IMG/VR virus record: IMGVR_UViG_2737471818_000002
Span: 1-42,138 of that record
Source: a virus
Lineage: Duplodnaviria; Heunggongvirae; Uroviricota; Caudoviricetes
Length of the DNA: 42,138 bases
Reading direction: 5' to 3' (one strand)
Position numbers and translations under genes: made by a program
The notes under the pieces: generated by a model
Seen by the model: the letters and a program-made list of their open reading frames with translations, nothing else
Database searches by the model: none
Told to the model about the DNA's origin: nothing
Shown here: piece by piece, positions 40,029-40,449 of the stretch
Numbering within the stretch: the first letter of the stretch is position 1
Layout of the letters: the number at the start of each line of letters is the position of its first letter

Positions 40029-40124
40029 ATGGAATCACACAGCCTCACACTCGATGAGGCCTGTTCATTTCTCAAGATATCCAGACATACCATCGCCGCA
40101 TCAATGCGGTTTTTTATTGCCTGA
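40029..40124 (+). pseudogene. Short ORF resembling the N-terminus of an excisionase-family HTH protein, apparently truncated
   Basis: 31 codons; LTLDEACSFLKISRHTI resembles the first helices of Xis/AlpA-type HTH domains, then loses similarity and stops inside the terminator hairpin. Confidence 0.3.
40096..40116 (+). terminator. Intrinsic terminator just left of the first tRNA-derived repeat
   Basis: CCGCA-TCAA-TGCGG hairpin followed by six T. Confidence 0.5.
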
Positions 40125-40125
40125 T

Positions 40126-40141
40126 TTGCAGGTTCGATTCC
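40126..40141 (+). repeat. Direct repeat of the argW variable-loop/T-arm segment (TTGCAGGTTCGATTCC), proximal half of the att core
   Basis: 16-bp exact match to tRNA positions 1053-1068. Confidence 0.6.
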
Positions 40142-40160
40142 CTATTCGGAGATAGCACTC

Positions 40161-40361
40161 ATGCAACACGAACTACAGCCTGATTCACTGGTTGATTTGA
40201 AATTCATCATGGCCGATACTGGCTTCGGTAAAACCTTCATCTATGACCGGATTAAGTCCGGCGACCTGCCAAAAGCCAAAGTTATCCACGGGCGAGCAAG
40301 ATGGTTATATCGTGACCATTGTGAATTCAAAAATAAGCTCTTAAGCCGCGCCAATGGGTAA
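40161..40361 (+). CDS. AlpA/Vis-family DNA-binding protein (candidate excisionase or regulator)
   Basis: 66-aa ORF; pattern LVDLKFIMADTGFGKTFIYDRIKSGDLPKAK...GRARWLYRD fits the AlpA (MerR-like HTH) family; lies between the two tRNA-derived repeats. Confidence 0.55.
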   Translation: MQHELQPDSLVDLKFIMADTGFGKTFIYDRIKSGDLPKAKVIHGRARWLYRDHCEFKNKLLSRANG

Positions 40362-40434
40362 AATAGCGGGTAAAATATTTCTCACATCTAAAAAATACCA
40401 TTCCAATCAATCCCCTGCCGCTTCAAGTAGATGT

Positions 40435-40449
40435 CTGCAGGGGACACCA
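40435..40449 (+). repeat. Direct repeat of the argW 3' terminus (CTGCAGGGGACACCA), distal half of the att core and likely attR boundary
   Basis: 15-bp exact match to tRNA positions 1069-1083 including CCA. Confidence 0.6.

What the first reader, a model, noticed from the sequence alone, without database searches (positions are those of the whole stretch)
40029..40449. Split attachment core: the two halves of the argW 3' end lie 293 bp apart and flank an AlpA-like gene
The 3' terminal 30 nt of argW is TTGCAGGTTCGATTCC followed by TGCAGGGGACACCA. At the right end the first half occurs at 40126-40141 and the second half, including CCA, at 40435-40449. The 293 bp between them encode a 66-aa AlpA/Vis-type HTH protein. 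A terminator and a truncated Xis-like HTH fragment lie immediately to the left. This could mean (a) the true attR is the distal repeat and the phage carries its excisionase plus an extra tRNA fragment next to attP, (b) tandem integration with the AlpA gene as a remnant of an older argW island, or (c) an insertion into a once-contiguous att core.
Basis: seen in the sequence. Interest (0 to 1): 0.6.

Follow-up and report, generated by a model that had tools for sequence, protein, structure and literature searches.

The report
Known TorI/IntS prophage end at argW
This is the ordinary right end of a P22-like prophage inserted in the argW tRNA gene: the small gene is the well-studied excisionase TorI, only the distal repeat is the real attachment core, and the proximal repeat is a conserved tRNA-like box in front of torI whose role is untested.

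Summary
Both repeats are real and exact. The interpretation as a "split core" is not supported.

- **The gene:** the 66-aa ORF is 100% identical to TorI (PDB 1Z4H), the excisionase of KplE1, HK620 and Sf6.
- **The real attR core:** only the distal 15-mer CTGCAGGGGACACCA (40435-40449) is a crossover core.
  - An empty argW junction, built by deleting 1084-40449, occurs at 100% identity in many E. coli genomes.
  - Joining the two prophage ends gives a gap-free 660-nt match to the attP regions of phages Sf6 and HK620.
- So torI leaves with the phage.
- **The proximal 16-mer (40126-40141):**
  - It lies 19 nt upstream of the torI ATG and 197 bp outside the 135-bp attR that works in vitro.
  - Related modules in other genera keep their own T-loop-like TTCGAT right next to the core, so the 16-mer is a second T-arm copy, not half of a split core.
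  - GGTTCGATT is invariant in eight lineages in which only 11 of 66 third codon positions are invariant. I infer a selected cis-element of torI control; its function is untested.

The finding as stated is already known. The conserved box is a small possible addition.

The parts
1009..1083 (+). argW, tRNA-Arg(CCU). Its 3' end is kept intact by the phage-supplied core.
   Evidence: ARAGORN; annotated tRNA-Arg next to yfdC in E. coli genomes.
1069..1083 (+). attL core, CTGCAGGGGACACCA (16 nt with the following T, as published for KplE1).
   Evidence: Exact repeat of 40435-40449; core sequence given in PMC2951348.
1089..1179 (+). Five TorI (excisionase) binding 8-mers in the P' arm: CAGTTCGC 1089-1096, CAGTCCGC 1109-1116, CAGTTCGT 1152-1159, TGGTTCGC 1162-1169, CAGATCGT 1172-1179.
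   Evidence: The number, the cores (GTTCG, GTCCG, GATCG) and the spacings (12 nt; 2 nt and 2 nt) match the description of sites I1-I5 in PMC2951348.
1200..1244 (.). Probable IntS arm-type sites of the P' arm: GGGTAAA at 1200-1206 and inverted copies at 1223-1229 and 1238-1244. They overlap the intS promoter.
   Evidence: Repeat search. The paper states that arm-type sites overlap PintS. The assignment of these exact 7-mers is my inference.
1245..2402 (+). intS, a tyrosine integrase of 385 aa, co-oriented with argW at the attL end.
   Evidence: Pfam Phage_integrase, Phage_int_M and Arm-DNA-bind_3; phrog_1 integrase. The predicted attP query includes intS codons 1-52 (window 1245-1400), and that query matches HK620 at 97.7% over 661 nt.
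40029..40124 (+). Truncated P22-type xis remnant (31 codons; homology to Xis ends near codon 19-20). A shared lambdoid mosaic joint.
   Evidence: BLASTP 20/27 to ST104 Xis. The same DNA lies upstream of xis in phages 434 and HK022.
40095..40115 (+). Intrinsic terminator homologous to the one upstream of xis in phage 434 (labelled t'-I in GenBank M60848), with its T run.
   Evidence: Terminator scan; annotation in phage 434 records; alignment.
40126..40141 (+). T-arm box TTGCAGGTTCGATTCC (argW nucleotides 47-62). It lies 19 nt upstream of the torI ATG. It is not part of the crossover core and is conserved across genera.
   Evidence: It lies under the promoter that the HK620 record labels 'phage integration', with a cII site.
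40161..40361 (+). torI, the excisionase (recombination directionality factor), 66 aa.
   Evidence: 100% identical to PDB 1Z4H, 'Tor inhibition protein'; phrog_66 excisionase; annotated torI in E. coli genomes.
40356..40374 (+). Two direct GGGTAAA repeats (40356-40362 and 40368-40374), probable IntS arm-type sites of the P arm. They overlap the torI stop codon.
   Evidence: CGGGTAAAA is invariant in seven lineages. They lie inside the published 135-bp attR substrate, which starts at 40338 (PMC3509656).
40435..40449 (+). attR core, the true right boundary of the prophage.
   Evidence: empty-site junction; attP reconstruction.
40450..42138 (.). Bacterial flank: intergenic DNA, then an oligosaccharide MFS permease on the minus strand (40891-42138), consistent with cscB.
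   Evidence: This flank is contiguous with argW in empty-site genomes; NCBIfam TIGR00882 at 594 bits; csc genes lie next to argW in phylogroup B1 strains (PMC3032704).

Best explanation
**What it is.** Positions 1084-40449 are a P22-like (Sf6/HK620-like) prophage integrated in argW by the KplE1-type recombination module.

**How it works.**
- In the circular phage the order is: early-left genes, xis remnant, terminator, T-arm box, torI, P arm, core, P' arm, intS, gtrABC.
- IntS recombines the 15-16-nt core with the identical 3' end of argW. After integration intS sits at attL and torI at attR.
- For excision, TorI binds its five GTTCG-type sites in attL. Together with IntS and IHF it directs exchange between the cores at 1069-1083 and 40435-40449. 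torI therefore leaves with the phage and argW stays intact.
- These mechanistic steps are shown in the literature for KplE1 and are inferred here by sequence identity.

**The proximal 16-mer.** It takes no part in strand exchange. It is a second, isolated copy of argW nucleotides 47-62 in the torI leader/promoter region, and it is kept by selection. My inference is that it controls torI expression. Two candidate mechanisms, both untested:
- a protein-binding site, since it carries the TorI recognition pentamer GTTCG and duplicates the attB sequence directly left of the core;
- an anti-Shine-Dalgarno strand, since GAUUCC can pair with GGAGAU.

**Confidence.** The figure of 0.88 is for the att assignment and the identity of the module. 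For the box being functional at all I put about 0.55. For any one named mechanism I put no more than 0.3.
For: **Identity of the module**
- TorI is 100% identical to 1Z4H.
- The integrase has the expected domains.
- The phage genes gtrA, gtrB, gtrC, tailspike, DNA transfer protein and repressor are present.

**Boundaries**
- A synthetic empty junction (784-1083 joined to 40450-40749) is found at 100% identity; 1415 genomes cover at least 80% of it.
- The predicted attP is colinear with Sf6 (98.2% over 660 nt) and HK620 (97.7% over 661 nt).
- The HK620, Sf6 and Kapi1 records annotate the attP core there, between hkaC/gene 18/excisionase and int.

**Match to published KplE1 anatomy**
- The paper gives a 16-nt core, five TorI sites with GTTCG/GATCG/GTCCG cores, and their spacing. 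All are found at the expected places.
- The Kapi1 paper states that attP lies between int and xis in Kapi1, Sf6, HK620 and KplE1.

**The box is outside attR**
- The in-vitro attR primer maps to 40338-40357 (PMC3509656).

**The box is under selection**
- GGTTCGATT is invariant in 8 lineages (E. coli, Enterobacter, Citrobacter, Serratia, Pantoea, Edwardsiella, Hafnia and one metagenome contig).
- In those lineages only 11/66 third codon positions are invariant, and the longest invariant run in the coding sequence is 8 nt.
- 15 of 16 positions match argW in Hafnia, Serratia and locus L014.
Against: **No experiment on this strain.** Excision and the use of the distal core are inferred from identity to studied phages.

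**The function of the box is unproven.**
- It does not fit the full 8-mer pattern of the five known TorI sites: positions 1 and 8 are A.
- The box/Shine-Dalgarno hairpin shows no covariation, and its folding energy is no better than that of shuffled sequences (z -0.2 to -1.9).
- Several TorI lineages lack the box altogether: a Klebsiella-type lineage, Dryocola, Tatumella, Rouxiella, Proteus and some Pantoea. It is therefore dispensable for a working module.
- Single-base variants of the box occur among E. coli prophages.
Confidence: 0.88

Rival explanations
1. The proximal 16-mer is a neutral fossil of an old recombination event that captured part of argW (for example imprecise excision, or a junction formed at the cII-site TTGC). 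It has no present function.
For: - It matches argW-specific bases (TTGCAGG), not only the generic T-loop.
- It starts exactly where homology to the lambda/434/HK022 region upstream of xis ends, at TTGC.
- Many TorI modules lack it.
- There is no tRNA or Rfam signal.
Against: - A neutral relic should have decayed like its surroundings. Instead, 9-12 nt stay invariant in lineages whose flanks cannot be aligned and whose synonymous sites are about 45% diverged.
- Its distance to the Shine-Dalgarno sequence and the ATG is also kept, at 20-21 nt in 7 of 8 lineages.
Confidence: 0.3
2. Split core. An ancestral attP carried a contiguous 30-nt copy of the argW 3' end, and the torI segment was later inserted between nucleotides 62 and 63.
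For: The two repeats are adjacent in argW and together make up its last 30 nt.
Against: - In Serratia, Citrobacter, Pantoea, Enterobacter, Hafnia and Edwardsiella the sequence just left of the core is itself T-loop-like: (G/A)TTCGATGT(A/T)TGCAGGGGACACCA. T-loop nucleotides 54-59 are therefore present twice.
- The leader downstream of the box has no significant similarity to the tRNA 3' end (p 0.2-0.9).
- The excisionase is an essential part of the module, not a passenger (PMC3509656).
Confidence: 0.07
3. Tandem integration. The stretch 40126-40449 is the remnant of an older argW island that stays in the chromosome when the phage excises at the proximal repeat.
For: argW is a highly variable island hotspot (PMC8787464; PMC3032704). 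Degraded remnants that keep only torI next to dsdC do exist.
Against: - The proximal repeat lacks the crossover core.
- The Sf6, HK620 and Kapi1 phage genomes carry box, torI and core contiguous with int.
- Empty sites lack the whole 1084-40449 block.
Confidence: 0.03
4. The box is simply the spacer of a lambda-like cII-dependent pI promoter that drives integrase expression across attP during lysogenisation. Its resemblance to argW is coincidental.
For: - The HK620 record annotates a 'phage integration' promoter and a cII-binding site at positions corresponding to window 40116-40154.
- Window 40038-40129 is 89-93% identical to the terminator and cII-site region of 434 and HK022.
Against: - The two TTGC half-sites are 5 nt apart here, not 6 as in the consensus written in the 434 record.
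- No sigma-70-type promoter is detected.
- The box is conserved in Edwardsiella, Hafnia, Serratia and Pantoea modules that have no TTGC repeats or terminator upstream.
- A 12-nt chance match to the neighbouring tRNA bases is about 6e-8 per position.
Confidence: 0.1

Closest known systems
KplE1 (CPS-53) recombination module of E. coli K-12: argW attL, intS ... torI, attR
   Same: - Same tRNA target and same core.
- TorI is 100% identical.
- Same five TorI sites, with the same spacing, in attL.
- intS and torI sit at opposite prophage ends.
- The same xis remnant, terminator and T-arm box lie upstream of torI.
   Different: - KplE1 is a 10-kb defective remnant next to dsdC. Here the module belongs to a roughly 39-kb apparently complete P22-like prophage next to a csc-type permease gene.
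- At attR the base after CCA is G here, against T in the published 16-nt core.
Phages HK620, Sf6 and Kapi1 (P22-like podoviruses; attP lies between the excisionase gene and int)
   Same: - attP region 97.7-98.6% identical across the reconstructed junction.
- Same box-torI arrangement.
- O-antigen-modifying genes lie next to int.
   Different: - HK620, Sf6 and Kapi1 have a different terminator hairpin and different genes upstream of the box. The IME10 match starts inside the xis remnant, like this window.
- Sf6 carries oac rather than gtrABC.
Lambda/434/HK022 upstream terminator, pI promoter, xis, int, attP arrangement
   Same: - Homologous terminator and first cII half-site upstream of the excisionase gene.
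- A small winged-helix excisionase is read in the same direction as int.
   Different: - In lambda attP lies beyond int, so xis and int stay together at one prophage end. Here attP lies between them.
- Lambda has no T-arm box, and its cII half-sites are 6 nt apart.
Tandem or degenerate att repeats left by serial integration at tRNA genes
   Same: A second piece of tRNA 3' sequence lies inside the element.
   Different: - The internal piece lacks the crossover region.
- It is part of the packaged phage genome.
- It is conserved across genera at a fixed distance from a gene start.

Membership tests
KplE1/HK620/Sf6-type IntS-TorI recombination module | Integration into the 3' end of argW, with a duplicated core CTGCAGGGGACACCA(T). 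| tested here: met
   empty site; core sequence in PMC2951348.
KplE1/HK620/Sf6-type IntS-TorI recombination module | The excisionase is TorI (HkaC, Sf6 gp18). | tested here: met
   66/66 identity to PDB 1Z4H.
KplE1/HK620/Sf6-type IntS-TorI recombination module | attP lies between the excisionase and integrase genes, so the two genes end up at opposite prophage ends, with intS co-oriented with the tRNA. | tested here: met
   intS at 1245-2402 and torI at 40161-40361, both on the + strand. Joined ends match Sf6 and HK620 attP. Stated in PMC8787464.
KplE1/HK620/Sf6-type IntS-TorI recombination module | Five TorI sites in attL, in two blocks (spacing 12 nt; 2 nt and 2 nt), overlapping the intS promoter region. 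| tested here: met
   against the description in PMC2951348.
KplE1/HK620/Sf6-type IntS-TorI recombination module | TorI-dependent excision by IntS and IHF. | not testable with these tools
   Shown for KplE1 in vitro and in vivo (PMC2951348, PMC3509656). Inferred here from identity.
Split or compound att core (both repeats take part in strand exchange) | The proximal repeat lies within the functional att site and contains crossover sequence. | tested here: not met
   The proximal repeat shares only one base with the core. It lies 197 bp outside the 135-bp attR substrate that recombines in vitro (PMC3509656).
tRNA gene or tRNA pseudogene | Recognisable cloverleaf, or a partial match to a tRNA model. 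| tested here: not met
   ARAGORN finds only argW. There is no tRNA-clan hit in 39900-40600 even at E up to 10. Bases downstream of the box are not tRNA-like.
Lambda-type cII-dependent pI promoter | TTGC-N6-TTGC straddling the -35 region, upstream of the excisionase gene. | tested here: inconclusive
   The region is homologous to 434 and HK022 pI, and the HK620 record annotates it as such. The half-site spacing here is 5 nt, and no promoter activity can be tested.
   Only a sub-threshold HTH_17 hit (16.9 bits against a cut-off of 27); no Phage_AlpA hit at E up to 0.1. Some database sources do name homologues 'AlpA family'.

The most novel reading that the evidence does not exclude
The T-arm box (argW nucleotides 47-62, invariant core GGTTCGATT) is a previously undescribed functional cis-element of the TorI/IntS module. 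It would be a deliberate copy of the attB sequence just left of the core, placed in the torI leader. TorI or the IntS core-binding domain could then sense it and couple excisionase expression to the recombination proteins; alternatively it masks the torI ribosome-binding site.
Probability: 0.4. Interest if true: 0.4.

Novelty: already known. Interest (0 to 1): 0.22.

Why it matters
**For annotation.** The result fixes the prophage boundaries at 1084-40449. It identifies the small gene as the excisionase TorI. It also warns against reading every internal tRNA-like repeat as an att site.

**For biology.** The main layout is textbook for KplE1, HK620 and Sf6. One point may be worth a small experiment. 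The torI promoter is described as uncharacterised in PMC2951348. The box directly upstream of torI is as conserved as the integrase arm sites and the core. It is therefore a concrete candidate for the missing control element of excisionase expression.

Tried and rejected
1. **Decayed full tRNA 3' end.** I asked whether the leader downstream of the box is a decayed tRNA 3' end, which would mark an old attR. Local alignments to TGCAGGGGACACCA score no better than shuffles (p 0.2-0.9). Rejected.
2. **T-arm mimic in RNA.** The 3' half of the T-stem is not kept and does not covary between lineages (reading). There is no Rfam hit. Rejected.
3. **Box/Shine-Dalgarno hairpin.** 92% of cells pair, against at most 61% when the partner is slid. 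There is no covariation, and folding-energy z-scores are only -0.2 to -1.9. Left open as inconclusive.
4. **Full TorI site.** The GTTCG core is present, but the flanking positions differ from all five known sites. Weak support only.
5. **Sigma-70 promoter scan.** No site in 39700-40700.
6. **Searches for more diverse modules.**
   - The first viral-contig scan returned only loci encoding a TorI 100% identical to the query. It was useful only for showing two alternative upstream contexts.
   - P0028 contigs were again E. coli-type prophages.
7. **Papers not held in the library.** The JBC 2007 and Virology 2010 KplE1 papers, and the PNAS 2013 paper on transcription termination and prophage maintenance, could not be read. 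I therefore could not check whether footprints or transcript mapping already cover 40100-40160.

Full report

Yes.
- TTGCAGGTTCGATTCC occurs exactly twice in the 42-kb window, at 1054-1069 and 40126-40141. None of 100 dinucleotide-preserving shuffles gave two matches, even with two mismatches allowed.
- TGCAGGGGACACCA also occurs exactly twice, at 1070-1083 and 40436-40449. With the preceding C the repeat is 15 nt.
- ARAGORN places tRNA-Arg(CCU) at 1009-1083. The two pieces are therefore argW nucleotides 47-62 and 62-76.
- The 293 bp between the right-hand copies contain a 66-codon ORF, 40161-40361.
- To the left lies a terminator-like hairpin at 40095-40110 with a T run.
- Further left is a 31-codon ORF (40029-40124). 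Its first 19-20 residues are those of the P22-type Xis of phage ST104 (20/27 identical, E 6e-12).

**2. What the small gene is.**

- The 66-aa product is identical at all 66 positions to PDB 1Z4H, 'Tor inhibition protein'.
- TorI is the excisionase of the defective K-12 prophage KplE1. It is identical to HkaC of phage HK620 and gp18 of Sf6 (PMC3509656).
- It hits phrog_66, 'excisionase and transcriptional regulator'.
- It gives only a sub-threshold HTH_17 Pfam match and no Phage_AlpA match. 'AlpA-like' is thus a loose label rather than a tested membership.

**3. Where the prophage ends.**

- I built the empty site by joining window 784-1083 to 40450-40749. It is found at 100% identity over all 600 nt in many complete E. 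coli genomes, and 1415 genomes cover at least 80% of it. The insert is therefore exactly 1084-40449, and everything to the left of 40450, torI included, came in with the element.
- I built the expected attP by joining 40100-40449 to 1084-1400. It aligns without a gap across the junction to Sf6 (98.2% over 660 nt) and HK620 (97.7% over 661 nt). Its attR half (346 nt) matches Kapi1, whose record ends at the att site, at 98.6%.
- The GenBank records of these phages annotate the attP core at that spot, between hkaC/gene 18/excisionase and int.
torI is inside the excised phage genome, which supports option (a) and refutes option (b).

**4. The anatomy matches the published KplE1 module in detail.**

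- PMC2951348 gives the core as CTGCAGGGGACACCAT. It describes five TorI sites in attL: I1 and I2 are 12 nt apart; I3, I4 and I5 are 2 nt apart. Their central pentamers are GTTCG, GATCG or GTCCG.
- The window has CAGTTCGC (1089), CAGTCCGC (1109), CAGTTCGT (1152), TGGTTCGC (1162) and CAGATCGT (1172), with exactly those spacings.
- GGGTAAA repeats occur in the P' arm at 1200-1244 and in the P arm at 40356-40374. I infer that these are the IntS arm-type sites.
- intS (1245-2402) has the arm-binding, central and catalytic integrase domains.
- The rest of the insert is a P22-like genome: gtrA, gtrB, gtrC, tailspike, DNA transfer protein and CI-type repressor.
- The flanks are yfdC and an oligosaccharide MFS permease consistent with cscB.
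- The Kapi1 paper states explicitly that in Kapi1, Sf6, HK620 and KplE1 attP lies between int and xis, so the two genes end up at opposite prophage ends (PMC8787464).
- The feature as a whole is therefore already known.

**5. The proximal 16-mer is not half of an att core.**

- It shares only one base with the core.
- The attR substrate that recombines in vitro is a 135-bp fragment. Its left primer, CTCTTAAGCCGCGCCAATGG, maps to 40338-40357, 197 bp to the right of the 16-mer (PMC3509656).
- In TorI modules from other genera the DNA just left of the core is itself T-loop-like:
  - Serratia: GTTCGATGTATGCAGGGGACACCA
  - Citrobacter and Pantoea: ATTCGATGTATGCAGG
  - Locus L014 (a metagenome contig): ATTCGATGTTTGCAGG
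  - Enterobacter: AATCGATGTTTGCAGG
  - argW itself: GTTCGATTCCTGCAGG
- Those attP sites therefore already contain their own T-loop-to-CCA block. The upstream box is a second T-arm copy, which argues against option (c).
- The leader between the box and the ATG shows no significant similarity to the remaining tRNA 3' end.

**6. What the 16-mer sits in.**

- Window 40038-40129 is 89-93% identical to the region upstream of xis in phages 434 and HK022. There it is annotated as a terminator (labelled t'-I in GenBank M60848) followed by the cII-binding site of the pI promoter.
- The homology stops at the second TTGC, which is also the first four bases of the 16-mer.
- The HK620 record annotates a 'phage integration' promoter with a cII site over the positions that correspond to window 40116-40154.
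- However, the TTGC half-sites are 5 nt apart here, not 6, and no sigma-70 promoter is predicted.
- Among E. coli prophages there are two different upstream contexts: the xis remnant with its terminator, or an unrelated hairpin terminator. Both join the common module at the T run just before the box. The box thus belongs to the torI module.

**7. The box is conserved beyond neutral expectation.**

- I examined 25 genome loci, plus viral contigs, that encode TorI homologues.
- A box is present 20-27 nt from the ATG in E. coli, Enterobacter, Citrobacter, Serratia, one Pantoea, Pantoea stewartii, Edwardsiella, Hafnia and two metagenome contigs.
- Hafnia (TTACAGGTTCGATTCC), Serratia and locus L014 (TTCCAGGTTCGATTCC) match argW at 15 of 16 positions. 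The resemblance is therefore to argW, not only to a generic T-loop.
- Across eight lineages GGTTCGATT is invariant. In the same lineages only 11 of 66 third codon positions and 2 of 10 fourfold-degenerate sites are invariant, and the longest invariant run in the coding sequence is 8 nt.
- This conservation is comparable to that of the arm-type repeat CGGGTAAAA and of the core. I infer purifying selection, and therefore a function.
- The box is nevertheless missing from a Klebsiella-type lineage, Dryocola, Tatumella, Rouxiella, Proteus and other Pantoea. It is not essential to the module.

**8. What the box might do (inference only).**

- *Protein-binding site.*
  - It contains GTTCG, the pentamer that was mutated to abolish TorI binding in attL. 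The flanking bases differ from all five known sites.
  - It is identical to the attB sequence directly left of the core, so an IntS core-type half-site is also conceivable.
- *Anti-Shine-Dalgarno strand.* A consensus hairpin pairs GGUU..GAU.CC with GG.AUC..AACC around the ribosome-binding site. 92% of cells pair, against at most 61% when the partner is slid. There is no covariation, and folding energies are not better than those of shuffles.
- *T-arm RNA mimic.* Unlikely, because the 3' half of the stem is not maintained and Rfam finds nothing.
- PMC2951348 calls the torI promoter 'non-characterized'. I could not read the three papers most likely to contain footprints or transcript maps of this stretch.

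**9. Verdict.**

- The 'split core' framing and options (b) and (c) are not supported.
- Novelty: already known. The conserved T-arm box in front of torI is a modest possible addition that would need a simple reporter or footprint experiment.

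Noticed in passing
L028 2492-4067 (Proteus hauseri): Here the TorI homologue (2492-2680, + strand) is convergent with, and overlaps by 9 nt, a 385-aa ORF on the minus strand (2672-3829). This is probably the integrase, judged only by its IntS-like length and its position. It lies next to tRNA-Arg(CCU) (3995-4067, minus strand). The excisionase and integrase genes would then sit together at the tRNA end, a different organisation from the window.
   Followed up: partly
L013-L022, L205, L214: about 10 nt left of the attR core: Outside E. 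coli, the attP/attR sequence next to the core keeps a T-loop-like TTCGAT(G/A)GT, whereas E. coli has GTAGATGT. Lineages without the upstream box mostly have TTAGATGT. This may be a correlation or only shared ancestry.
   Followed up: partly
L034-L113, the 130 nt upstream of torI: E. coli-type torI modules occur behind two unrelated upstream segments: the P22-xis remnant with a lambda-like terminator, or GTAACCAATATTCGAATTGAAG... with a different hairpin. Both join the module at the terminator T run, which marks a recurrent mosaic junction. The Sf6 record labels this area 'bsq2; boundary sequence'.
   Followed up: partly
window 40061-40070: CTGTTCATTT inside the xis remnant resembles, from my memory only, the TorR 'tor box' decamer CTGTTCATAT. 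TorI is an inhibitor of TorR. The same bases are present in phages 434 and HK022, so this is probably coincidence.
   Followed up: no
L007 1823-3202 (E. coli SWYHX138.33gt): An IS911-family element ends 9 nt before the torI ATG and has removed the box and everything upstream. What remains is a short prophage remnant with torI next to dsdC.
   Followed up: no
window 39738-39789: Two consecutive terminator-like hairpins (39738-39759 and 39770-39789) precede a 72-aa ORF (39796-40014). That ORF has no Pfam or PHROG match.
   Followed up: no
window 40354-40449 and onward: In HK620 and Sf6 a small ORF (hkaB, gene 17; 46 aa) starts inside the torI stop region and runs across the attP core. In the prophage its 3' end is replaced by host DNA. 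Whether it is a real gene is unknown.
   Followed up: no
L014, L031: Contigs labelled as an Actinomycetes MAG and a Parachlamydiaceae MAG carry enterobacterial-type torI modules with the box (85-92% TorI identity). These are most likely binning or contamination artefacts.
   Followed up: no
window 40450-40760: In many E. coli genomes the DNA directly right of argW is annotated as a 'DUF4942 domain-containing protein' fragment. This suggests an older island remnant in the bacterial arm.
   Followed up: no
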